A stretch of DNA of 63,291 nt, filler included, from Sphacelaria rigidula (Eukaryota): the NCBI GenBank assembly GCA_964200075.2. It is 9 parts of 9 records of this genome, joined end to end, with 100 filler letters (N's around TTAATTAATTAA, not from the genome) between each part and the next. Parts side by side here need not be neighbours in the genome. Positions count along the whole stretch, not along the records: positions 7,045 to 13,988 come from CAXNAA020017284.1; 8 more parts are not named here. One strand, given 5' to 3'. Below are positions 7,045 through 38,926 of the stretch, one piece after another. The position numbers were made by a program, and so were the translations under genes. The notes beneath the pieces were generated by a model. That model worked only from the letters and a program-made list of their open reading frames with translations, ran no database searches and had not been told where the DNA came from. Position 1 is the first letter of the stretch; every line of letters begins with the position of its first letter.

Positions 7045-7111
7045 GGCGTACTCATTTGTTGCTTGCCTTAGTCGTTTGACCATTGACCACGCATCCCTTT
7101 CGAGACGGAGC
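7045..7111 (-). mobile_element. LINE 3' tail, subfamily A
   Basis: Reverse complement of the ...GGTCAAACGACTAAGGCAAGCAACAAATGAGTACGCC tail, cut by the contig edge where the C tract would be. Confidence 0.8.
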
Positions 7112-7426
7112 AAAATCTACCTACGTGTCCGTATCTCGCCCCAAAAGAGGCCTATCCAACAAACTCATGAGCAAAATCGGCACTTGCTACGATACACCAC
7201 CCCAAGAAGTGCCTGGTTTGAGCAGGCAAAAATTTCATTAAAAGTGAAATGGAAAAGGCCACGCACAACGAGCAGCTGGAAATTCCCACGCTTGGGTTCG
7301 TTCTTGCCAATGTCGCCCATATGAGGCGCTTCATGCAGCCCGAGCCCAAACACCAGGCGCTGTATGGTCATTTTTTCGTGACACTATCTGGCCGGTTGGG
7401 GGCGGGGGGGGGGCTATCGTAGAACG

Positions 7427-7649
7427 TTGTAATGCGTGAGAAACCCGCGTGCTTAGAGGACCGCACCGGAATATAACCACTCCTATCGTTAGGGTTAGGG
7501 TTAGGGTTAGGGTTGGGGTTGGGGTTAGGGTTAGGGGCATGCATGGTCCCTTCAGGGACTGGCTCGATTGGTCTTGAAAAACGTCGATCCTGAGGTGTGT
7601 CGATCTACGGTGCGGTCCTCTAAGCACGCGTTCCTCTCACGCATTACAA
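7427..7649. mobile_element. MITE carrying internal telomeric (TTAGGG)n repeats
   Basis: TIRs TTGTAATGCGTGAGAAACCCGCGTGCTTAGAGGACCGCA / TGCGGTCCTCTAAGCACGCGTTCCTCTCACGCATTACAA. Eight TTAGGG/TTGGGG units at 7489-7536. Second, inverted copy at 47019-47534. Confidence 0.8.
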
Positions 7650-8218
7650 AGTGTCAATCACCAGGGGGAGTATAAATGGGATTGATCGGTGAATAGCAGA
7701 AAGAATTTGAAAACACACGAGGACTAAACGAAAGAGCTACTGTAGATGCTTTGTTGTGGCATAAGAGTGTGACTGGAAAAAAGGCTGGTACGAAATGCCC
7801 TTTTTTCTGGCAAAGTGTTGCGGATTTTTCGAAAACCTAAAGCGGAAAACGATCATATAGACAACTTGAATGAATAGAGAACAAACTTAATACAAGAAGC
7901 GATTTCTCAGCGTAGCCGAAGAAACGAGAAAGGGCACTAGAGTGATGCTACGGTAGGGGGTGCACTTTTTTAGCGCGAAAAGGTTTCTCGGAGATGCTCG
8001 GGGTGTTGGACGGGTCACTGTGTGAATCGGCATCATTTATACTTGAAAAAGACTGAAAGTGATGCCGATTCACGAAACGACCCCTGCGTGCAAACACTAT
8101 GTTTCTGGGAACCCGGTCCCCGAATATTTATTGGGTTGCATAGCAGTAACTCCCACATATGTTTGCTTCTACAAGAACGAGAGCCCTAGAAACAAAACGT
8201 GTAACCCCCACCAACTAC

Positions 8219-8508
8219 GTTTTCGTGAGCTTGAGAGTATAGCGCTGGTTGAGAGTGGCTTTGATCATTCGCTTTATCTTAGCCAATTTTTCCATTCCGT
8301 GTGCGCTCTTTTTTACCTCCATCACTGCCGTGTGTGTACAGCTACACGTCGATATCCTACTCAGGCGTATCAAGGGCCCCAGTGGCAAGCTGCTACAGAG
8401 AGCATATCGGGCTTTGTGGAGGGGCATTTCGGAGCTGAAACGATCCATTCACTAATTGATCTGTTTTCACTCTCAATCGTATCTTCTACTCTCAATCTCA
8501 CCAAAACA
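8219..8508. mobile_element. ~290-bp MITE family (copies also at ~18797-19085, ~19125-19381, ~39422-39713, ~41333-41626)
   Basis: Termini GTTTTCGTGAG(A/C)TTGAGAGT...ACTCTCAATCTCAC(G/C)AAAAC are inverted repeats. The conserved interior (CGATATCC...CAAGGGCCCCAGTGGC...GGGCATTTCGGAACTG) recurs on several unrelated contigs. Confidence 0.8.
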
Positions 8509-10218
8509 TTGTTTACCGTAGGATTTCTCAAGTAAGTGATGAAACAGGATCCTGGAGAAGAAAACGTAGAGAAGTGGAGGGTAAAATGATTTTTGCAATT
8601 TCACGGAAAACAGCAGCAGTTCCTGCCCCGCCGAAAATAGTGAGCTTGATTGAAGAAGTTCGGACTCAAATTATCGAAAGAGAAAATAAGATCAATCGAG
8701 TAAGAAAAACGTGTATCCTTACACTTGGAGGCATGCACTAGTGAGTAGCATATTGCTTTTCCCGGCTAATCAGCAGGGTTGAGAACCATGCGACAATCAT
8801 TGATACCGGAAAATGACCGCAGACCCGATTGAAATCAGAAGAGGGACGATTGGAAAGACATGCTCACGAAAAATAGGGGTTTCCTACTTAATGTGTACCA
8901 AAGCCGTTCACATTTCTTGCCTAAGGTTGAGACCCACGCGGGGAGTTATGGCCAAAATCTAGAGAGGGATAAGTATGTTCAGAAATCGAACAGTTTACCC
9001 ATTGAATCAATGAGTGAACAGTTTACCCACTGAACCGGTGAGCGGCTCACTGGTTTAATCGACAAACTGTTCGCTCCCTGAATAAAAGCTTTGCGGTACG
9101 AGTACCGGCATGATCCATTGTGGAAAGAATGAGGTCGGCATGTGAACAGTGGGCATGTGCAAGAACTTCGCGGTGAAACATTTCTCAGGCATACAGTTCT
9201 CCGTACCTACGTTCATTATTTTGTACGATCTGTACCATAGTTTCAGAAGAGGCTTCACAACATTCGGTAGGGGGCATATGCTGAGCTTGTATGGCTCTTC
9301 GAAATTCCTCGGAAGTTGGTGGCGCGTGTAAAACACACGAACGAGGGCGTCATATCGCCGTGTTTGTAATTGAATTGGAGGAAAACTTGTAGGTCTTGAG
9401 TTTTGCTCATGTTTGTGACAGTTCAGCATGCTCCTGTGCAGCATAATTCCACGATTTTATCTTCAGCCGTGTCCATCTTGAAAAAGCCATGGATCACACC
9501 GAAATGATTTTATTTCTCGTCTTTCCCCGGGGTCTTCTGCCGGACTGTTTCTGCGGGCTAGTTCCAAACCTTGGTTCGAAGAAAAAACGCAGTAATGGTT
9601 ATCCTGTTGTGAAGCTCTCGTTATTATTCATTCATTCATTATGAGCGTGACACTTGTTCGTGAATATCAAGAAAATTCGCTCCACTGTATCTCCAACTGC
9701 AGGATGGATGTCACCCTCGCACAAGAAACAAAGAATATTATCCGTACCCGTTTGCCATGATGATGCCCAGACCAGGCACTCTTCCTTTGTCGCTTTTCTC
9801 CGAAAGGGCAGTGACGCGATCCTTGACCTGCTGGCGGATGACCTTAGCGGCAAACTTTCCATTCAACGGAAGGGCTGGGACTCCCGCCTCCCGCACCATA
9901 TGGGTTGGCGTCGTGCCGAGGGAGGGGCTCTGCTCATATAGACGAAGTTCGCAAGAGGGAAAGACGACAGGGCGGGGGAGATGTGATTCGAAGGCTGGCT
10001 GTGTTACCTCATCCAGGGGTACCAAGAGGAATTATGATGTCGGAAGGCGCCGTGTAGATGTGCTTATGGCACGCAACGTGGGGGTGAAAACTAAGAGTTC
10101 GCCCTACCACGTGCCATTGGAAGAGGGTGCCATGTATGGTTGCTTGCACCCCCGGTGCACGCAATAATGACACCTGCATGCTAGTATTCAGCCCCCCCTC
10201 CTCCGTCGGTCGTATTTT

Positions 10219-11387
10219 CAGGGCTCTTTATGTTACACGTTACATGTTACGTCACTAATGTGACGTATGAAACGTTATACGTGACGTCACAAATTTTTGC
10301 ACAGGAAAACTTATACGTCATGTCATGTCACATTTTTTTACGGGAGCGTTACGTTACGTCACACTTGTGACGTATTCAAAAGTTATACGTCACTTTACGT
10401 CACAGTAACGTACTTTGAAACGTTTCCCGTACCGCGTAACGAATTTAATACGTCACACGTCAATTTAAACGTTACACGTAGCAATAAACGTTACACGTCA
10501 CATATTATACGTTTGTGACGTCTGCATGAACGTCACAACCGTCACACGCTCAACTTGTACCACTACTAGTGTGAGATTAGCTTATGTGATACTCGCATGA
10601 TATGATACATAGGCTCAAGAAGAGTGTGCATACGTCATCATAATACGCACGCGATGTAAGCGCAAGTTCAGCGCCATGGCAGCATGCACCGACACACCCG
10701 ACCATAGAACATAGAACAAGCGAATATCGGAATCCGAAAGCACGAGTTTCAAATTTCCGAATTTCGAATTTCCAACTTCGATAGCACAGACGGGCGGGAG
10801 CGACGTGTAAGGTAACAATGACCGCGGCCTAGGGTACCGAAACGACGAGCGAGCAAGAACGCATTCTTACATGTTAACATAGCGGGCAGAACGCGCCTCA
10901 TGCTCGAACAAGGCAGCCACCGTGAACCTCCCGTACCAAGTTGCGGTACATGAAACCTTACAACGTCGTACGTGGCGTTCATTTGCCCTCAACACGATTG
11001 ATGTGTAACTTTTCATTTTACGTCACATGTCACGAACGTAACGTATATTAGTCGTTACACGTCACACTGACGTTCCAAAATGCGTTGCACGTCACACACC
11101 TGACGTTTCAAAATACGTTACACGTCACCAACGTATAATAATGTGATGTGTAACGTTTCATGTAACGTGTAATGTATAAAATACGTTACACGTTACATGA
11201 AACGTTTCAAATTACGTCTATATGACATATAAAAAAACATCACGTCACGTCACACTTGTGACGTATTGAAAAATTGAACGTTACGTAACGTCACATTTTT
11301 TCACCGATACGTTACGTTACGTCACACCCTTGTGACGTACGTTTGTGATGTGTAACGTACGTGTAACGTGTAGCGTCAAGAGCCCTG
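10219..11387. mobile_element. Non-autonomous hAT-like DNA transposon with ACGT-rich subterminal repeats
   Basis: TIR CAGGGCTCTT...AAGAGCCCTG. Imperfect 8-bp flanks CGTATTTT (10211-10218) and GTTATTTT (11388-11395). Dense GTTACACGT/ACGTCAC motifs at both ends. Confidence 0.75.
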
Positions 11388-11701
11388 GTTATTTTGGTGA
11401 TACCATTGACGTGTTTCCAAACGGCTTGACTGCTTAGAACTCGTGATGCGTTGTATGCGGTTGCTTGTGTGCGTGCCGCTCAGATGGCCGCTGGCACACG
11501 TAACCTTACGACAGATTATGAGTGAATCGAGCGACGAACGTGCAGCGCGAATCGGACTCTGACCACACCCCGTTTTCGCGTCGTGTAACCATTTCAACCC
11601 GTCTTTACCCTGAGATATCTGTTTTGCAACACGGTTGACCCTCTACGCTTGCTGTTCAACTTGCCGATAACCTAGCGACGTTCCAAAATACGCATCGTAC
11701 T

Positions 11702-13793
11702 TCATACCTTGAAGACGAAACGACGACGGGCGTCGTTGTGCCATGTGCTGGAGAAACACTCTCGCATCTTCGACAGTTCCGATGCTCTGTACCTCTCAAC
11801 CTACGTGTGGCACAGTATATCGACGTCGGTGAAAGCAAGCAGGTACGAGTCAGAGTTCGGCTGCGAGCTCTGCACAGCCTCACATGTTTCCCCAAAGTGC
11901 GGGTGAATACTGGTTAATGTAACCCATTCGTAGGAGCACCCGGAGCCACAGCGATCGCAACAAGGTATGGAAAAGAAAGCGAGACATAAGGGAGCGTGTC
12001 CGCTCGACTGAAGTAATGTATTCGTGGATCATGACCACGAGAAGGTGTGGATCTGGCATCGTTTATTGATTGGGTGTTGGTGTGACAGGATTCGAAACCA
12101 TCACGACGAAATGAGACGAGCTGCAAGTCTCTATGCCATCGCGATTTTTTCACCCTTTGGAACCACGCAGTGTCTCTCTCTTGCTTCTTTGCAGCGATAA
12201 TTTCTTCGGCCACACCACTTGCCAAGAGCTCCTGAGCGCGGCCTCGGATGTAGCATGCCTGGTTCAGTTCAGAAGAGCAGATAAGTAGACCCGTTTTAAC
12301 GGCAGAAAAGACGAGGGAGATGATCGGTTTTGCTGTCGTGGGTTGCCCGCTTTTTAATTGACAGTGCCGGTGAGTATGGATTGCACCTGCGAAACAGGAG
12401 CGAGGATCTAAGTCATGCATGTTAGCGCCGCAATGGAAAAGGGTGTCAATTTTTGTTGGCCACACTCTACCCCCCCCCTCGTTAAGACGAGGATCGGGCC
12501 TGGTTCGGCGAAAACCCGGCGTGTTCCGTCCTGGCTTTGTAGGGGTGCGAGGTCATAGGTCTTATGACTACGGCATGCAAGATCATGACTATACCCCCGC
12601 TCCCCCGCTCCCCCGCTCCCCTCCTCAGACGAGTCCGTGATCTCAAAGGAACAATCGATCTCTGCCCGGTACCAGCCTTGCATTCCGGTCTCGCAGAGTT
12701 GATCAACACTCCCGTACCGGGTAAACGTTCGACAAACAAACTCAGTCAACCACCTATTGTTTACTCACGTCCCCACGCTTTCAACGGTGAAAATCAGATA
12801 CTTCGAAGAAAAACCCAACGCTTCTGGCGGGAATCGAACCCACATTCTCTACACCCTAATGGTGTCAGTCGGGCCATTACTTACGCCACCGGGGTGCGGC
12901 GGTCTATTACACACCAATTAGTTTGACCCGTCTTACCGTCACACATGAATGAATGGCAAAAGGTAAAGGACGTATCGCATACTTTGCTGTTGGTTATGCT
13001 CCTCATTTTTGAGCTCTTCTAATTTCTCGCGTATCGTTCTTCGCTTGCTTCGGAAACCACAGAAATTCTAGTTTCATACCTCCTCATGGAAGGCCAAGCT
13101 TGGCGAGTAGCGCATCAAGTCGTCCACCATTCCAAGGGCTAGCGCTTGACTCGCGGTGATCGCTCGGGTGCTGTCTGTGAGCTCCTTCGCTGCCTCCTTA
13201 CCCATCCTTGCTTGTAAAAAAAACGACCAGTACTCCGAACCCGTCAACTCCATGGCCTGTCAACCCACAAGTTCGCGAAGTACTAGGATCATTCCTGGTG
13301 GTGGTGGAATGACGTGTATTTCTAGGATGGGACAGCGCTTCGCAAACACATGCGCGCAACGCTTTGCGATCTACGTGTGTTTCGTCGCGTGATGTTTTTA
13401 GGGCAACCTGTTGTCACGTGAAGAAACAACCGGTGTCTAAGTTATCCAGGTAATGAAGCTACGCGCACAGAAAAAAACACTTTTGTGGAGCTGTCTACTG
13501 GTCGAACCCGCGGTCGTCCTCCTGACAGCATCGATAGTCTTTGGGGCGGCGTTGTCGCGCCCTTCGCGGTAATTGTGCGCTCTTTTACGACACGGCACCA
13601 CGATGGTCAAGCATACCTTATAGTGGGGATTGAGAATAATGCTTTCGTGAGCCCACACGAGATCGGACGACATTGCTGCCATTGCCCCACCGGCTCCGGC
13701 ATTGCCCCGCATGGCGCTGACGACGACCTTGTCCGTGATAGAGAACGCCTCCATGATGGAGTCGTTGATCGCGTTGATGTTCCTCCACGATTC
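11702..13793 (-). CDS. hypX: HypX/HoxX-like protein, C-terminal enoyl-CoA hydratase/crotonase-like domain (5'-partial, 4 exons)
   Basis: Four phase-0 GT-AG exons. 13793-13617: ESWRNINAINDSIMEAFSITDKVVVSAMRGNAGAGGAMAAMSSDLVWAHESIILNPHYK. 13256-13080: AMELTGSEYWSFFLQARMGKEAAKELTDSTRAITASQALALGMVDDLMRYSPSLAFHEE. 12258-12154: ACYIRGRAQELLASGVAEEIIAAKKQERDTAWFQR. 11800-11708: VERYRASELSKMRECFSSTWHNDARRRFVFK, then GTA TGA (V-stop at 11702, or a further donor). The motifs ESWxNINAI, GNAGAGG, LNPHYK, GSEYW and YRxxELxxM...ARxxFVxK are those I recognise from bacterial HypX. Upstream exons lie beyond the contig edge. Confidence 0.88.
12497..12622 (+). mobile_element. LINE 3' tail, subfamily B, with C-rich tail (intronic in the HypX-like gene)
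   Basis: GGCGAAAACCCGGCGTGTTCCGTCC...TTTGTAGGGGTGCGAGGTCA...CTTATGACTACGGCATGCAAGATCATGA followed by (CCCCCGCT)n. Other copies at ~28030-28076(-), 28222-28310, 35490-35592, 40944-41032, 45650-45770. Confidence 0.75.
12622..12895 (-). mobile_element. tRNA-derived SINE, family 2
   Basis: Minus-strand head CCCCGGTGGCGTAAGTAATGG (A box) ... GTGGGTTCGATTCCCGCC (B box). Body shared with ~14615-14830, ~49395-49610 and ~54690-54975. Confidence 0.7.
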
Positions 13794-14885
13794 CTGGATA
13801 AACGCGGCATATAATACCAGCGGCCGGTGGTTCATGTGGCGACGGCATTGCATCTGTATGTAACACCAAAGGCCTCTTGTATCGTGTGAACTAGAACGGT
13901 CGGCCGCGTAGATGTGTTAGAGAGAGATCGTAGCGGCTTTAGTAGCGCTTCTCAGTTGCCGGTATGCCACGCTCGGATGTCTACAAGTNNNNNNNNNNNN
14001 NNNNNNNNNNNNNNNNNNNNNNNNNNNNNNNNTTAATTAATTAANNNNNNNNNNNNNNNNNNNNNNNNNNNNNNNNNNNNNNNNNNNNCCCCCCCCCGCG
14101 ACCCGCGCCTAAAAAGGGATGGGGGGGCGGTGGTCAAACGACGAAGGCAAGCAACAAATGAGACCCCCCCCCCCCCCCCCCCCTCCCGGTACACGCCTTA
14201 CACTTTGGTAACGCGGGTTGATTTGCATCAGCACTCCCGCACCACATCACACGGCGTAGACTGTCCTCGAACACTGGTACTGGAAGAAGAACGAGGACGA
14301 TACGGATGTCTTGCAACAGTATGAAAGCTGCCAACAGTTACGACTACGTTACTCTGTTCGCAGTTAATAGAAGCTGTCAGCCGCAGCGTCCGTCCCCTTG
14401 GCCCCTGTAGCGCACAGGCCCTAAGGATCATGTTGTAGCCGGCGATGTTACTGTTGTACTTGATACAAGGCAGCACGATCCCTTTTACTGCATGTAGCTC
14501 GCTCACAAGTCGTGTTTTGATCCACGACATGGCGATAGTATGCTTCCCCTTACCCCCCATACCCCCGTCGCTCACTCATTCTCCCTTGTTTTCTGATCGC
14601 ACTTTGAACCCGTCCCTCTCCTCGGGACGAGTCCGTGGTCTCAAGGGATGAGGCCATCTCTCCCCGGTGCATGCCTTGCATTTTGGTCTCGCGGATGGGA
14701 GTCCGTAGTCTAGCACCGCATCAATTCTCATGACACGAACTCATTCACTCTGCTTTATGCTTGGTCACGCACGTACCCGCGCTGTCGACGGTGGAAATCG
14801 GATACTGTACTTTCGAAGAAAATATGTCATTTTCATATTCGTTTTTTTTTCGCGTTTTTTTTTCGTGTTTTTTTCTTTTTTCAAG

Positions 14886-21493: not shown

Positions 21494-24400
21494 GCTATCG
21501 GATGTAGTAGGAATCGAGTGGGGGCGTTGTGCTCCCGCGCCAGACGGCGGAGGCTACTACGAGTTGTACTACACGGTGCCCGACGAGCTCCGAAGACCGT
21601 GGCAGGTGCAGACAACGATGGAGATGCCTCGCCGGTGACATGCCGAACGTCTATTATTGTATTGGTTCTCTCTTTTTGTCGGTGCTTTTCGTATCCGCCG
21701 ACAGAGGCCGAGGATTTTTAAGTCGTGTGAGGATGATCGTGCGGCGTTGGAGTTAGGGTTGCACTCGAGTCGGGAGCCCATCCTAAGTTATTCCTCACAG
21801 CTTCCCCACTATGCTGTATATATGCTGGGGACAGGTACGGCGGGTGTTGCTGCGATCAACGGCATCGATGACGAGGTCGCCAGTCAACGGCGGCAAGAGT
21901 GGCTCCAATGACTCCGTCCGACACCGTGGAAGTAAGGATGACGATAGTATTCCTGGGTTGCAATGGGCGGTGGACATGGCTAGTGACGCGGCGGTTTTCG
22001 AGGAGGTCGATGACGCCTTTTTCGTAGATGTGGGCAAGACCAAAGATCATGCCTTCGTCGTCATCAACGTGCACTCCAAGACTACTTCAGAGATCTTGCT
22101 TCTCCCCGCCATCACCAATACTGCCGACACTCCGTCTACCACGACACCCTCCGCTCTTGAAGAAGGCGTGCTCAAAACAGCGTCATCGGTCGCCGGGAAG
22201 GCTCACGTCAGCAAGGACGAAGGTAGCAAGGTAGACCACGGCGTTCTCAGCAGCAGTCGCGGCAGCAGTAGCAGCGATTGCAGCCCGGTGTTGCTCCGGA
22301 AGCGAAAGCAAGGTGTAGAGTTCTACGTCGATCACGCGGTACACACCTTCTACCTCATCACTAATTCCCCTCCTGAACGCGAACGTGGGATTTGCTGCAA
22401 CGAAAATGTAGACACCATCGGGGGAGCGGAGGAGTATCGGCTCGTGCGTCTCCGGCAGCCACGAGGTAAAGATGGGCCCTGCCTCCGAGGTATCGCGGAC
22501 GAGCCGTGGGAAAGCGTCCGATACTACGGCCGCGAGTCTCTCGAGAACAGGGATACAGCGACTAAAACCATCAGCCCCCTACACACTCATCAGGAGTGCT
22601 CCGATGTCTGCTCGTTGGAAGACAATGAGGACAAAAGAAGGAAAGACAGTGGTGGGGCTACTGGTGTGGGCGAGCTGGTGCGTGACACTCCCGATGGAGT
22701 TGAGAAGCATGGGGACATCGAGAGGCAGGCTGGAGGTCATGAAGGTGCCGCCGCCCCCGTTACCGCAATACGAGGCGATGTGAATGTGGGAGGAGGAGAA
22801 GGAGCAGGCGGCACGATTGAGGAGATGGATCTGTTCCGGGAGCATTGCGTGCTGTATGAGACATCTACGAGTGGGTCTCCGAGGCTGAGGGTGGTGCCGC
22901 TTGGTAGCCCCGAGTCGGCGTTCGTAGTTACTCCACCGCCTCCGGGCGGCTGCGGCGGTGCGAATTTTTCGTGTGCGAGGTTTCGTGCGTTTTGTAGACA
23001 AGCGCGGCTTTTGCTGCATGTCAAATACGTTGTGCGAGTTTTCGCTCCTCGTTGCGTATCCCATACGCGAATACTACAATAGCGTATCCTACAACACAAG
23101 AGCGTACTATATATATATAACACAACGGTCAGTAGACGATCAACGTGCCTGTGGATACCACAAATACATCGCTGGAGAACGCATGAGACTGTCAGTCGAT
23201 TCGACTTCGACAACTTCACTTTTAGCCGAGAGTTCATCGTGTAGGCCAGACACGTGAGGAGGAAAAAAGAAAATACTTGTATCGGACTCTGCTCTACGCT
23301 TTCTTCAAAACAACAGGCGGCGACTGCGACAGCAAAGGCAATAGTAACTTCGGCGGCGAGGTAAAAGACACGGCGATGGCCGACGGGGCTAGCGTCCTCA
23401 GGCCCGGCGTGAACGCGTGGCTCGATAGCAAGACCGCGCGATTCTCGGTTTCATCGCCTACCGCTCCCGAGGATGTGTATGACTTGTGTCTGCAGTCCGG
23501 GAGACTAGACTTGCTCCGACGGACGAATGTGCCCGGCAGCCCTCGCTTTGACAGCAGCAACTACAGGTGTGGGCGTGCAATAGGAGAGCATACTGTACCG
23601 CAACAACCCCCTCCCTTTTTTTTCACAAGCGTATCTTTCCCTGCGCCTCGTCGAATGTGCCATGTGTTGCGTGCTGCCTTTGTTCAAGCTTATCTTGTGC
23701 TAGGATGTGTATAGCGAACCAAGGGTCAGAAGGGACTATGCAACAATCTTACGACTTGTTAGGGGAAAGGGATACATATCACTTGCATTTCGTGTGTCGT
23801 GTGACGTGTGTGTGTGTTGGTGCATGTTCGTTTTGCAGGTGCTACCGAGTTCAAGTGAGCTCTCATGACGGAGTGCGGATTCCGCTGACGATCGCGCATG
23901 ATAGATCAATAGTACTCGATGGCACCAATCGCTTGGTCTTGCACGGGTGAGTTTTGTGTTCCTCGCCACTGCTGTGCGGTGCTGCTGCCTTGCAGCCAAG
24001 CACCCTTTCCGATAATCACTCCCGTGAAGCTGCTGTTTTGCGGTCAAGCACACACAACGGAGAACACAATAAAAAAACATCTTAGCTTCTTATCGTGGCT
24101 CCGCCATCTGTGACGACACGAGGGTATCAAGTTTGACAACATGTCCATTAAACAACGACCCCCCGATGCTATTGTAGCGCACGTTTGTTTACTCGCGGAA
24201 TATTTTGAGGGCTTTCACTTTATCAGACCTGAAATATTCTCGGTTCCCGTTGATCATGGAGTACACGCAATCTCTCAAGGACCGGACGGAATTATCGCTG
24301 GTTCGAATCACCGAACTCTACGATTTCTTGGGCCGGGTTGCTCGGAAGGGAGAAAAAAGTTGACCCTGGACCAAAGAAGTCTCTGCGTTTTTTTTTCTGC

Positions 24401-36056: not shown

Positions 36057-38926
36057 ATGCTCGCGGGAGCAGGTGTGGCTGTGAGAATCACGTTGGGTCT
36101 GTTGGGCATGCAACAACGACTGGAGAGTACCCCGGAGCTCGTTGTGCCATCGGCATCGTGGGAAAGGGCGAAGGAAGGGCTGTTCTTAGCAAGCCTGTAA
36201 GATATCCGGAGCACAACAGTGTTGTTTCTGCGTGCCCGCCTCCAGCTGAAGAATGAAGACAGTAGGCGGATGAGCCGCATTTCTTGCTTTTTTTGTTGTT
36301 GTACGAGAAGGAGCAGCATATCTTTGAGCTCTCTCTTATGGTGCATACTGTAGCCTCTTGTTCAGGATAGGGACGTGACGGTTCCGTGTTTTCCCATCAA
36401 GAATCAACGCTGAGAATGGCTGGATGAAACGTTGGGAATCGTTGATTAATTTGACTGTCGCACAGTAGTAAACCCCGGGGGATCGAGCTGTTATTCACTA
36501 CCCTACTATAATACGAGTCTGATGCCTAGTATCCCATCTTCTCTCTCCCCGTCTTGTGACGGTTACCGCTCGCCCGTGAACCAGGGGTCTGTCCCACTAC
36601 GCAGGAGGCGTGTTTGCTGGTTCACCGCTGTTATTGGGCGTAGCGTCCCTTTGCGCTATGCTGCCTACGGGGCTGCAGAACCTTGGCGCCGCCGTGCTGT
36701 TCGCTGCCTTCGACGTGGCCAGCGCTCTACTACTGCGACTGATATGCCTACGGGCGGTGGCTGTAGAATCGTGCGATTGGTGAGAGTGTTTCCAGTTTTC
36801 CTTGCTCTTCTTTTGCTGAAATGGTGTTGGCGTTGAGCAGAGCCATCTATACTGGCAACGCGGTGCACAACACAACTTTCTGGGTACGCTAAAACAGAGG
36901 TCACGATGTGCTTGCGCACGACGAATATTGTTGTTATGGGTGCTGACATGACTCTCAGAAATATGATGAAGTGTCCTCGGGAACGCTGCTCTTCAGCAGT
37001 TCAGTGCTTCTAGTGAGCATACTGCATGTGTAGTCCCAGGCGTGTTGGTTATCCATTGCCACAACTTGAAGCGGAGAGGTAGGACGCAAACATCATTTTT
37101 TGGTCTCACGTGGTGCACGTGCGTACTGCTGAAACAGGGAAACAGAACTGGAGAAATGGATGGACGAAGACACAAGACCGCCGGGTAGAAATGACGCATC
37201 ATCGCCGGAATCTGCAAACAAATCAGCTGCAGAGAACACTGTACCAACAACAGAAAAGTCTAGGGAAACACAGGGAAAGGAGCAGACTGGCAAGCTGCCG
37301 TCCTCGGAAAGCAGGAAGCATGATTGCAGTGCGTCTCGCACACGTGTGGTTGACGTTACATCAACGGAACAAGGTCAAACCGACTCATGGCACCAACAGC
37401 TCCCCGACGTGGTGGTGGCGATGTATTTGCTCAACCCTTTGTTGGTCGCTCAATGCGTCGCACTTTCTGGCGACGTGCTCGGCCGCGTGCTACCGCTCAC
37501 TGCGCTGGCGGTCGCCGGGAGGCAACAGTTTGGATTCTCACCAATGACGCCAGTAGTGGCTGCAGCTCTTGCTGCCGCAACCTGCCTGTGGCGCTTCCAC
37601 GCCGCCCCCTTGCTCCTCCCTGTAACTCTCATGCTCAGCCGCGGCAGGTCCTCAACGAAGGAGGGCGTCGCTGGCACCGCTACGGTGGGGGCGAGGGCGA
37701 GAGGAGGGAACGAAGTTTGCGACAAACCTTCGGGGCGGATACGACATTGCCTGGAAGGAAACGGCAAGGCGAAAAGTGACGGCGGATATGAACCACTCCA
37801 GGATGAAAGCGAGTCGACCGGCAATGTTGATGCTTCGGGTGTCGGAGGAACACCAACCTCGCTGGAAGCCTATCTTGGCGGATCCTCGTTTGACCCGCTT
37901 CGTGTGGATTTCGATATCGAAGTGTTTGCACGCTTGTGCACCATGTTCGTGGCATTTTGCGTCGTGATCCTTGGGGCGTGTTGGCTGACCACGTCGCCGT
38001 CGTGGGGGTTTCTGCGCGCGGCAGTTGGGGGGCAGCTGCTGTGCGAAGACCTGACACCGAACGCCGGACTGTACTGGTACTTCTTCGCGGAGATTTTTCC
38101 TCGGTTCCGTGGCTTTTTTCTAGTATTGTTCCTGTCTCAGCCTTACGTGTACGTCCTCCCGGTGGTATTGAGGCTCGGCATGTTCCCTGAAGCTGCGGTG
38201 AGAGACAAGCCAGCAGAGTACATTGCAACGCTTGATATGCTAGTACCCGAGAAGCCACCGCGTTTGATCATGTGTGATAATGAGCACACGTTGGCGTGCG
38301 GTTTAACCGGTGCAGTCTGGCTTCGGTTCGTCGAAGTGCGATACGACGTAACAAAAAACAGGCGCTGTTCAGAGATATTCCTGTAGCCTCTTCACCGCAA
38401 CTTGGCGTACTACAAACACGCCTGATGTGGACCGTGAAGTGACCTAATATTCAGCACCAATCGCGCTCACCGGCCCATGCTCACCACACCTTACACCCGA
38501 TTGTCGGATGCGTCTGCTGTTCCTCTCGTTCGGCTCTTTTTCTGATGACAGGCCACTTTACTGTTGGCAATCTTCGGTTTTTTCCAACCGTACCCAACTC
38601 TGGCGGACCCCATGTTAGCGGGGTGTCTGTTTTTGTGCCATCCGCGCACAGCAAGGCGCATGCGAATCATCGTCCCTGTCTTTCTGGCGGCCGCAGTGCC
38701 CTCGTTGCTCTTACCGACTATGCGGCACTTGTGGCTGAGGGCTGGTACCGGCAACGCCAACTTCTACTACTTCCAGACTGTGGTGCTCAACGTTCTGCTG
38801 TCCGTTCTCGTACTCCAGTTCGCGGCTGCTCTCGTGAAGAGGCGGAAAGCGATTCGGTTAGCTGTTCACAAGCAACGGAATGCTGCTGCGGTTGGCGGTG
38901 CCATTGATTGCAGTGGCGGCGATTAG
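36057..38926 (+). CDS. PIGU: GPI transamidase subunit PIG-U (CDC91/GAB1), apparently complete, ~589 aa
   Basis: Exons 36057-36196 (PELVVPSASWERAKEGLFL), 36585-36779 (GLSHYAGGVFAGSPLLL), 37138-38197 (YLLNP; EDLTPNAGLYWYFFAEIFPRFRGFF) and 38552-38926 (FQPYPTLAD; LWLRAGTGNANFYY). Total 1770 nt, in frame, GT-AG introns. The start codon is the least certain part. Confidence 0.92.

What the first reader, a model, noticed from the sequence alone, without database searches (positions are those of the whole stretch)
11702..13793. Spliced eukaryotic HypX/HoxX-like gene: a candidate carbon-monoxide-forming enzyme in an alga
Seen in sequence: four intact phase-0 GT-AG exons, two of them missing from the ORF track, join into ~185 aa with ESWRNINAI, GNAGAGG, LNPHYK, GSEYW and YRxxELxxM...ARRRFVFK in the right order. 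Established: bacterial HypX has an N-terminal N10-formyl-THF formyltransferase domain and a C-terminal crotonase-like domain. It releases CO via formyl-CoA to supply the CO ligand of [NiFe]-hydrogenase. The Tyr of NPHY and the Glu of GSEYW, which I recall being implicated in decarbonylation, are both retained. Eukaryotes have no [NiFe]-hydrogenase, so the client must be different. Inference: this is an intron-bearing, probably bacterially derived gene kept for CO production or formyl-CoA/one-carbon chemistry. If the host is a kelp, it is a concrete candidate for the long-known CO accumulation in pneumatocysts of species such as Nereocystis, for which I know of no identified enzyme. Caveats: the formyltransferase half is off the contig, and I recall HoxX-like annotations in some other eukaryotes such as fungi, so eukaryotic presence alone may not be new.
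Basis: partly seen in the sequence, partly recalled or inferred. Interest (0 to 1): 0.92.

Follow-up and report, generated by a model that had tools for sequence, protein, structure and literature searches.

The report
Algal HypX-FolD candidate carbon monoxide synthase
This brown seaweed gene joins HypX, the bacterial enzyme that makes carbon monoxide from a folate-bound formyl group, to FolD, the enzyme that makes that formyl group, so it is an untested candidate for a heme-free source of carbon monoxide in seaweeds and other eukaryotes.

Summary
A fifth exon (9929-9748) runs in frame into a FolD domain (methylene-THF dehydrogenase/cyclohydrolase). One assembled contig holds exons 1, 2 and 5 without introns, spaced exactly as the five-exon model predicts. 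The host is Sphacelaria rigidula, not a kelp. Full-length brown-algal orthologues (911-979 aa) are formyltransferase + crotonase + FolD with all five HypX and four FolD catalytic residues. HypX is widespread but patchy in eukaryotes (fungi, Trichoplax, rotifer, flatworm, dinoflagellate). The algal copy's nearest kin are eukaryotic, so it is not a recent bacterial import. FolD is fused in at least two domain orders, and 31 of 48 N-terminal extensions in the eukaryote-rich clade look mitochondrial. Best reading: a mitochondrial enzyme turning serine/glycine one-carbon units into CO while recycling THF (0.55); main rival, formate release (0.2). No CO was measured. The pneumatocyst link is not specific, since bladderless algae have the gene, and Nereocystis was not testable. 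Ten literature searches showed no paper on this fusion.

The parts
13617..13793 (-). First exon on the contig (59 aa): crotonase-like HypX C-domain, ESWRNINAI to NPHYK; Tyr codon 13622-13620 = Aquifex Tyr416
   Evidence: contig X1/3 positions 868-1046, 0 mismatches
13257..13616 (-). Intron, 360 nt, GT-AG, phase 0
   Evidence: skipped in contigs of X1, X2 and X3
13080..13256 (-). Second exon (59 aa): GSEYW, Glu codon 13235-13233 = Aquifex Glu426; Ala at 13163-13161 where 91% of the family has Pro
   Evidence: contig X1/3 positions 1047-1223
12259..13079 (-). Intron, 821 nt, GT-AG, phase 0; holds a high-copy repeat near 12381-12844
   Evidence: depth table
12154..12258 (-). Third exon (35 aa): C-terminal helices of the HypX C-domain
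   Evidence: E 3e-9 to P0003; not among the pieces shown, inferred from contig offsets
11801..12153 (-). Intron, 353 nt, GT-AG, phase 0
11708..11800 (-). Fourth exon (31 aa), ends ARRRFVFK; the final Lys aligns to CoA-contacting Arg542 of Aquifex HypX. Not the last exon
   Evidence: inferred from contig offsets
9930..11707 (-).
   Evidence: skipped in contig X1/3 by offsets
10219..11387 (.). 1169-bp insertion with 10-bp terminal inverted repeats (MITE-like) inside that intron; absent from a second genomic copy of the gene
   Evidence: X4 contig 22 lacks 1168 nt here
9748..9929 (-).
   Evidence: contig X1/3 positions 1421-1603, 0 mismatches
7045..13988 (.). The single 6944-bp contig that holds the gene fragment; the formyltransferase exons (5') and the rest of FolD (3') lie off it
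   Evidence: NCBI model CAM9870004.1 of Sphacelaria rigidula is on a 6944-bp contig

Best explanation
The window holds the middle five exons of a nuclear gene for a three-part enzyme: formyltransferase, HypX crotonase-like decarbonylase, and FolD. It is probably imported into mitochondria. Glycine cleavage and serine hydroxymethyltransferase load THF with a methylene group. FolD oxidises it to 10-formyl-THF, making NAD(P)H. The N-domain passes the formyl group to tightly bound CoA, and the C-domain (Tyr416/Glu426 equivalents) splits formyl-CoA into CO and CoA. Net: methylene-THF + NAD(P)+ + H2O gives THF + CO + NAD(P)H + H+. With no [NiFe]-hydrogenase to take it (recalled), the CO escapes as gas. 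The likeliest purpose is a one-carbon overflow valve that frees THF when glycine flux is high, as in photorespiration, with CO as waste or signal. SHOWN here: exon structure, splicing, fusion, domain identity, conserved catalytic residues, fold of an orthologue, spread across eukaryotes. INFERRED: full-length protein in Sphacelaria, mitochondrial location, direction of the FolD step, CO as product, and purpose.
For: (1) Contig X1/3 (3380 nt) carries exon 1 at 868-1046, exon 2 at 1047-1223 and exon 5 at 1421-1603 with 0 mismatches; the model predicts 869, 1046 and 1421. 1777 nt follow exon 5, and a contig of X2 has about 1.9 kb before exon 1, room for both missing parts. (2) P0003, P0005 (Ascophyllum) and P0006 (Cladosiphon) carry PF00551, PF02911, PF00378, PF00763 and PF02882. 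P0003 aligns over residues 1-575 to Aquifex HypX at E 7e-105; its model (pLDDT 81.8) matches 6j0p at TM 0.92 by target, rmsd 2.4 A, and FolD chains at TM 0.77-0.91. (3) His74, Asp80, Asp109, Tyr416 and Glu426 are each kept in 35 of 35 fused rows (7 are near-duplicate Rotaria rows) and in 87, 88, 89, 90 and 88 of 90 rows of the eukaryote-rich clade. FolD Tyr52, Lys56, Gln100 and Asp125 are kept in 43, 46, 48 and 48 of 49 fused FolD parts. (4) FolD makes the HypX substrate, and the two are fused repeatedly: C-terminal in most, N-terminal in 3 of 49; fused rows are rejected as one clade (AU p 4e-96). (5) The same fusion occurs in 2 of 39 bacterial loci (Chloroflexota), whose genomes both carry hypD, so the architecture fits a CO-supplying role. 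(6) 31 of 48 N-terminal extensions in the eukaryote-rich clade are basic and acid-poor, against 1 of 12 outside it and 77 of 1800 control windows (my own crude rule). (7) Bacterial HypX releases CO from formyl-CoA in vitro (PMC12134894, passages). Plant formyl-THF deformylases are essential for photorespiration (PMC6451014, passages).
Against: No eukaryotic member has been assayed in anything I read. The formyltransferase exons and most of FolD are off this contig; their letters in Sphacelaria were not seen beyond one upstream crotonase-domain stretch in a second model, P0233. Runs X1-X3 are only guessed to be RNA and come from one study; exons 3 and 4 were inferred from offsets because the table was cut. 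CO binds cytochrome c oxidase (recalled), so a mitochondrial CO source carries a cost. Conserved Tyr/Glu could serve thioester hydrolysis as well: the structure paper itself proposes a water-activating mechanism. The window's copy misses 6 of 51 columns that are at least 80% conserved; 4 are shared with P0003, but Ala-to-Ser in exon 1 and Pro-to-Ala in exon 2 are not. Cladosiphon P0006 did not pass the presequence rule, nor did the six fungal-clade rows with extensions. Several CoA contacts of Aquifex (Arg9, Arg131, Gln195) are changed in P0003.
Confidence: 0.55

Rival explanations
1. Same fusion and location, but the product is formate. Formyl-CoA is hydrolysed rather than decarbonylated, so the enzyme is a CoA-dependent stand-in for the PurU-type formyl-THF deformylase plus FolD pair that recycles THF in plant mitochondria.
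For: It explains the FolD fusion and presequences without a toxic product or a missing client. Plant deformylases are crucial for photorespiration (PMC6451014). A Tyr/Glu-activated water is one mechanism proposed for HypX.
Against: The C-domain is as conserved in eukaryotes as in bacteria (Tyr 90 of 90, Glu 88 of 90), with no sign of a remodelled site. A hydrolase would not need the crotonase domain, since the N-domain resembles the hydrolase domain of formyl-THF dehydrogenase. Fused bacterial forms sit in hypD-bearing genomes.
Confidence: 0.2
2. The enzyme makes CO or formyl-CoA for a dedicated partner, not as overflow: a CO signal, a metal-carbonyl ligand of an unknown protein, or a formyl donor for a biosynthetic step.
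For: Bacterial HypX channels CO to a partner complex. Some bacterial hypX genes lie away from hyp genes (no hyp gene seen in 12 of 15 loci examined, several of them short), next to chemotaxis receptors, a Crp-family regulator or an MHYT protein (L005, L007, L009). HypD was not found in 3 of 10 such genomes, one of them an isolate.
Against: No partner is known in eukaryotes. Neighbouring genes cannot be read in this fragmented assembly. 7 of 10 of those bacterial genomes do have hypD elsewhere.
Confidence: 0.12
3. One reading: the gene is kept in brown algae specifically to fill gas bladders with CO.
For: Ascophyllum, which has air bladders (recalled), has the full fusion. The Nereocystis bulb is high in CO (PMC9601103, passages).
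Against: This copy is from Sphacelaria rigidula. The gene is also in Cladosiphon, Undaria and Scytosiphon and in a rotifer, a flatworm, a placozoan, a heterolobosean and fungi, which have no such bladders (recalled). It may still supply bladder CO as a secondary use.
Confidence: 0.05
4. The family is functional, but the window's copy is a decaying duplicate.
For: A second copy exists: model P0233 is 96.6% identical over 118 aa and keeps the conserved Pro, and X4 holds diverged contigs over the same introns. The window's copy has two private changes at conserved columns and a 1169-bp intronic insertion.
Against: There is no stop or frameshift in 245 codons, the splice sites are canonical, both catalytic residues are kept, and the spliced contigs match this copy with 0 mismatches.
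Confidence: 0.08

Closest known systems
HypX/HoxX of Aquifex aeolicus (PDB 6J0P, 6J1E-6J1J) and Cupriavidus necator
   Same: Formyltransferase plus crotonase architecture, 36% identity in the structural alignment and TM 0.92 for the orthologue P0003; His74/Asp80/Asp109 and Tyr416/Glu426 kept; Gln15, Ser194 and Asn306 kept, Arg542 as Lys.
   Different: Nuclear, intron-bearing, fused to a C-terminal FolD, with a mitochondrial-type presequence in many relatives; no HypCD or [NiFe]-hydrogenase client known in eukaryotes (recalled); the loop between Tyr416 and Glu426 is one residue shorter; Arg9, Arg131 and Gln195 are changed in P0003.
FolD / DC domain of MTHFD1 (PDB 1B0A, 1A4I, 4A26)
   Same: About 39-40% identity, E 1e-56; Tyr52-x3-Lys56, Gln100, Asp125 and the GGVGPMT motif are kept in P0003.
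   Different: Fused to a formyl-THF-consuming HypX instead of standing alone or joined to formyl-THF synthetase. Only its first ~40 residues lie in the window.
Formyl-THF disposal systems: plant formyl-THF deformylase (PurU type) with FolD, and 10-formyl-THF dehydrogenase (FDH/ALDH1L)
   Same: They drain 10-formyl-THF and free THF. The HypX N-domain is homologous to the FDH hydrolase domain, and both pass the formyl group to a phosphopantetheine thiol.
   Different: They release formate or CO2 (CO2 recalled). They have no crotonase decarbonylase domain.
Database-annotated eukaryotic 'hydrogenase maturation factor HoxX' (Ceraceosorus, Trichoplax) and an Ascomycota-rich Atlas cluster of 206 members
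   Same: Same HypX family and catalytic residues, in the same tree clade.
   Different: The named fungal and Trichoplax proteins have no FolD part. They are annotations only; I found no functional study.

Membership tests
HypX/HoxX | C-terminal crotonase-like domain closer to HypX than to enoyl-CoA hydratases | tested here: met
   Exon 1 vs PDB: HypX E 2e-16, best crotonase 0.17; the window's four-exon product sits with P0003 inside the HypX tree
HypX/HoxX | Tyr416 and Glu426 | tested here: met
   Both present in the window; roles from PMC6802093
HypX/HoxX | N-terminal formyltransferase domain with His74/Asp80/Asp109 | tested here: inconclusive
   Off the contig, so not read in Sphacelaria. 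Met in the orthologues P0003, P0005, P0006 (67-81% identical to the window's product). A contig of X2 has about 1.9 kb upstream of exon 1, but its letters are not shown
HypX/HoxX | HypX fold with both domains | tested here: met
   Tested on the orthologue P0003, not on the window's fragment: Foldseek 6j0p E 5e-51, rmsd 2.4 A
HypX/HoxX | Bound CoA and release of CO from 10-formyl-THF via formyl-CoA | not testable with these tools
   Needs an enzyme assay
HypX as a [NiFe]-hydrogenase maturase | hypCDEF and [NiFe]-hydrogenase genes in the same organism | not testable with these tools
   No whole genome is held for this window. That eukaryotes lack [NiFe]-hydrogenase is recalled, so I do not file it as a maturase
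FolD (methylene-THF dehydrogenase/cyclohydrolase) | PF00763 + PF02882 domains | tested here: inconclusive
   The window holds only the start (NCBIfam FolD E 5.7e-4; PF00763 E 0.015, below the curated cut-off). Complete and above Pfam cut-offs in P0003, P0005, P0006, but below all NCBIfam whole-protein FolD cut-offs listed
FolD (methylene-THF dehydrogenase/cyclohydrolase) | Tyr52-x3-Lys56, Gln100, Asp125 | tested here: met
   Met in orthologues only: P0003 aligned to human 1A4I, roles from PMC3368264, 43-48 of 49 fused parts. These codons are off the contig
Ordinary enoyl-CoA hydratase/isomerase | Best match to stand-alone crotonases | tested here: not met
   All NCBIfam crotonase hits of P0001 are far below their cut-offs (41 bits against 311 for the best); HypX scores far higher
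Mitochondrial matrix protein | Basic, acid-poor N-terminal presequence | tested here: inconclusive
   Off the contig. Crude rule met by Ascophyllum P0005 and 31 of 48 relatives, not by Cladosiphon P0006; no targeting predictor was available

The most novel reading that the evidence does not exclude
Many eukaryotes (brown algae, dinoflagellates, heteroloboseans, rotifers, flatworms, placozoans, fungi) carry an unrecognised heme-independent CO synthase. In its FolD-fused form it is a complete mitochondrial route from serine/glycine one-carbon units to CO gas. In brown algae it is the enzyme behind the CO of kelp pneumatocysts and part of algal CO emission to the sea, and relatives may explain the serine- and folate-linked CO of siphonophore floats, now assigned to heme oxygenase.
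Probability: 0.25. Interest if true: 0.92.

Novelty: new variant of a known kind. Interest (0 to 1): 0.7.

Why it matters
Heme oxygenase is still seen as the main enzymatic CO source in plants and animals (PMC4850744, passages). A HypX-FolD fusion would be a second, folate-based route in one polypeptide, wired to mitochondrial glycine and serine turnover. It gives a named, assayable candidate for the CO in the Nereocystis bulb (PMC9601103) and for biological CO from the surface ocean (PMC7277135). The Physalia genome paper recalls that float CO comes from L-serine but assigns it to heme oxygenase and never mentions HypX (PMC13579702), so the family is worth a look there too. If the product is formate instead, it is still an undescribed way to recycle folate.

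Tried and rejected
No whole genome is held, so the missing exons, copy number and absence of hyp genes could not be checked in the host. No further exon was found in 7045-9746 or 13794-13988; best E 0.057-0.5, taken as chance. Other contigs of the window gave no HypX or FolD hit better than iE 0.5. The look-up of sequencing runs: no RNA holder listed on record; 7 runs of 2 studies. I laid 4 of 7 runs; the joint table was swamped by repeats, so only the piece table was used, and depth was not used as expression. Ten multi-member clusters of unnamed brown-algal-like exon fragments gave no species names (0 of 32 members named), so Nereocystis, Macrocystis, Ectocarpus and Saccharina could be neither shown nor excluded; they are not among the named rows, each of which lists only its best 120. 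No siphonophore sequence could be recognised. The Physalia supplement gave 0 hits for five terms, including Mthfd, so it is uninformative. Val-plus-stop at 11707-11702 as the gene end: rejected. Ordinary crotonase: rejected. Bacterial contaminant: rejected by spliceosomal introns and the brown-algal clade. Recent bacterium-to-brown-alga transfer: not supported. A separate origin for the Macrostomum HypX, suggested, did not hold: a tree with the 21 eukaryote-side rows as one clade was not rejected and scored higher (p-AU 0.84). The FolD tree has a poorly supported backbone and no named outgroups, so it cannot count the fusions. The Neocalanus fusion comes from a transcriptome and may be prey or symbiont. 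Atlas feature scores were 0.82-0.84, leads only. Sequence and place look-ups in earlier findings were empty. The Burstel 2016 paper is not held.
Full report
VERDICT. It is the middle of a spliced brown-algal gene that fuses HypX to FolD. HypX is the bacterial enzyme that turns 10-formyl-THF into CO; FolD makes 10-formyl-THF. The chemistry is inferred from homology and conservation; nothing was assayed.

THE LOCUS. The window is nine contigs of 6943-6944 bp joined by N-padded spacers, so neighbouring segments give no context. The gene lies on the minus strand of contig 7045-13988. Four exons (13793-13617, 13256-13080, 12258-12154, 11800-11708) have phase-0 GT-AG introns of 360, 821 and 353 nt. 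Exon 1 hits Aquifex HypX at E 2e-16 and the best ordinary crotonase at 0.17. An NCBI model of Sphacelaria rigidula on a 6944-bp contig is identical to exons 1-2 (P0001), which names the host. That this alga is small, filamentous and bladderless is recalled.

THE MISSED EXON. The closest full-length relatives are 911-979 aa, far longer than bacterial HypX, and carry the two FolD domains. tblastn with P0003 found a fifth exon, 9929-9748 (E 7e-26), 1778 nt beyond exon 4. The GTATGA after exon 4 is therefore a donor, not Val-stop. The five exons give 245 aa without a stop, 81% identical and gap-free to P0003 383-627, 70% to Ascophyllum and 67% to Cladosiphon. No further exon was found on the contig.

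SPLICING. Of 7 runs listed, none is on record as RNA; I laid 4. In X1, one 3380-nt contig holds exon 1 at 868-1046, exon 2 at 1047-1223 and exon 5 at 1421-1603, all with 0 mismatches. The model predicts starts at 869, 1046 and 1421, so exons 3 and 4 fill the gap to the base, although the cut table did not show them. X2 and X3 show the exon 1-2 join. X4 pieces run through the introns. X1-X3 are one study and only guessed to be RNA, and a processed DNA copy is not formally excluded. 1777 nt follow exon 5 in X1, and about 1.9 kb precede exon 1 in X2, room for the missing parts; their letters were not shown. X4 also holds a diverged second copy that lacks 1168 nt of intron 4, matching a 1169-bp element with terminal inverted repeats. 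A second Sphacelaria model, P0233, is 96.6% identical over 118 aa.

ACTIVE SITES. PMC6802093 (parts 1-4 of 7 read) names His74/Asp80/Asp109 for formyl transfer and Tyr416/Glu426 for decarbonylation. PMC12134894 (passages) reports that formyl-CoA formation and CO release were shown in vitro. P0003 aligns over 1-575 to Aquifex HypX at E 7e-105 and keeps all five; the window keeps the two it encodes. Of 541 proteins then held, 357 covered at least 430 HypX profile positions and 53 had both parts. The five residues are kept in 35 of 35 fused rows and in 87-90 of 90 rows of the eukaryote-rich clade (7 near-duplicate Rotaria rows are inside the 35 and were counted with the 267 'other' rows because they were left out of the tree). 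In 49 of the 53 fusions that cover the FolD catalytic part, Tyr52, Lys56, Gln100 and Asp125 are kept in 43, 46, 48 and 48 (roles from PMC3368264, passage). The AlphaFold model of P0003 (pLDDT 81.8, flexible linker 570-582) matches 6j0p at rmsd 2.4 A and FolD chains at TM 0.77-0.91. Against: the window's copy differs at 6 of 51 well-conserved columns, two of them privately, and Arg9, Arg131 and Gln195 of Aquifex are changed in P0003.

DISTRIBUTION AND ORIGIN. Named fused forms: Ascophyllum nodosum, Cladosiphon okamuranus, Undaria pinnatifida (partial model), the dinoflagellate Togula, Pharyngomonas kirbyi, Rotaria socialis, Macrostomum lignano and a Neocalanus transcriptome. Named forms without FolD: Trichoplax, Chlamydomonas sp. 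UWO 241 and the fungus Ceraceosorus. An Atlas cluster of 206 members is 97% eukaryotic, commonest Ascomycota. A Scytosiphon fragment also matches. In a 351-row FastTree the window groups with P0003, Ascophyllum and Cladosiphon (support 100), then with Chlamydomonas- and Togula-containing groups, inside a 91-row clade (98) with no named bacterium; most rows are unnamed. A 68-row IQ-TREE agrees. Macrostomum fell outside, but holding the eukaryote-side rows together was not rejected. The trees are unrooted, so an old eukaryotic gene with many losses and eukaryote-to-eukaryote transfer both remain open; a recent bacterial import into brown algae is not supported. FolD is N-terminal in 3 of 49 fusions, the fused rows are rejected as one clade, and 2 of 39 bacterial loci (Chloroflexota) hold a full fusion. 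Opposite domain order means at least two independent fusions; the rest could be gains or losses, and some unfused rows may be truncated.

BACTERIAL CONTEXT. I scanned 102 of 140 ORFs from 15 of 39 loci. hyp genes were seen in 3 of 15; one locus (L013) has a separate folD about 2.7 kb away. HypD was found in 7 of 10 genomes, including both fusion carriers, and not in 3, one of them the isolate Paenibacillus alkalitolerans. So the fusion is compatible with a normal CO-supplying role, and HypX may also exist without its usual client.

LOCATION. Of 77 eukaryote-clade rows with an intact start, 48 have a 15-150 aa extension, and 31 of these are basic and acid-poor by my own rule, against 1 of 12 outside the clade and 77 of 1800 control windows. 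Ascophyllum passes; Cladosiphon and the fungal-clade rows do not. This points to mitochondria, where glycine cleavage and serine hydroxymethyltransferase make methylene-THF (recalled). The host's own N-terminus was not seen.

MECHANISM. Methylene-THF is oxidised by FolD to 10-formyl-THF, passed to bound CoA and split to CO, freeing THF and making NAD(P)H. I put 0.55 on CO as product, most likely as a one-carbon overflow valve. Plant formyl-THF deformylases are crucial for photorespiration (PMC6451014, passages), a precedent for the job with formate as product, which is the main rival (0.2). CO or formyl-CoA for a dedicated partner gets 0.12, a decaying duplicate 0.08, and a bladder-specific role 0.05.

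LITERATURE. Ten searches of an open-access library were run, judged by listing and abstract start. 'HoxX' gave 39 of 39 listed and 'HypX' since 2016 gave 40 of 46 listed; none is about a eukaryotic HypX or a HypX-FolD fusion. One fungal paper cites a hoxX paper in its references only (PMC5491491). Term searches in the main text gave 0 for HoxX/HypX in the Physalia genome paper (PMC13579702, which assigns float CO to heme oxygenase), a Physalia preprint and the Nereocystis genome preprint, and 0 for HoxX, hydrogenase and monoxide in the brown-algal genomics preprint. Passages were also read in PMC9601103, PMC7277135, 10.1101/645465 and PMC4850744. Subscription papers, the Burstel 2016 and Schulz papers, older kelp CO work and bioRxiv supplements (where gene-transfer tables may list this gene) were not seen. 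Earlier notes of this scan already report fungal HypX and a bacterial hypX-folD operon; they are unchecked leads, not support. The eight shown do not mention a eukaryotic FolD fusion; 5 of 13 were not shown.

SCORE. New variant of a known kind: both halves are known, and databases already label eukaryotic HoxX. The fusion, the likely mitochondrial location and the direct test it offers for non-heme CO in algae are what raise it. Interest 0.7, lower than 0.92 because the host is not a kelp, the family is widespread and CO release is unshown.

Noticed in passing
window 10219-11387: 1169-bp MITE-like insertion in intron 4 with 10-bp terminal inverted repeats starting CAGGG and an imperfect flanking duplication; a second genomic copy of the gene in run X4 lacks it.
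   Followed up: partly
window 9770-13556 (X4 contigs 22, 25, 26; X3 contigs 15, 16); protein P0233: A second copy of the gene about 9-11% diverged, at similar contig depth in X4: a paralogue or a distant allele. It was not resolved which.
   Followed up: partly
proteins P0408, P0418, P0520 (unnamed): FolD is fused at the N-terminus of HypX, the reverse of the algal order: an independent fusion in an unidentified lineage.
   Followed up: partly
L001:373-2925 and L002:6001-8703: HypX-FolD fusion genes in two Chloroflexota metagenome-assembled genomes, away from hyp genes though each genome has hypD.
   Followed up: yes
L004:6001-7716: hypX in the isolate Paenibacillus alkalitolerans, whose genome gave no HypD match.
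   Followed up: partly
L005:4445-7737, L007:1832-7719, L009:4678-7764: Stand-alone bacterial hypX next to possible gas-sensing genes: a chemotaxis receptor directly upstream in two Brevibacillus loci, with a Crp-family regulator and an ODP/flavodoxin protein in one, and an MHYT protein in another.
   Followed up: no
protein P0465 (unnamed, 863 aa): A FolD-fused relative whose crotonase half has lost the ESWRNINAI, NPHY and GSEYW motifs while the formyltransferase triad remains: possibly a member that no longer decarbonylates.
   Followed up: no
proteins P0125 (Trichoplax), P0141 (Rotaria), P0404 (Macrostomum): Animals carry HypX, fused to FolD in the rotifer and flatworm. Siphonophores, whose float CO is tied to serine and folate, were not testable and are worth a search.
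   Followed up: partly
window 7479-7543: Short interstitial run of CCCTAA telomere-like repeats.
   Followed up: no
window 37133-38386 (+) and 21787-23082 (+): On other contigs: an ORF matching GPI transamidase subunit PIG-U (E 6e-34) and one with a weak beta-propeller match (E 4e-4); 16 of 18 long ORFs had no Pfam match. No tRNA genes in the window.
   Followed up: no
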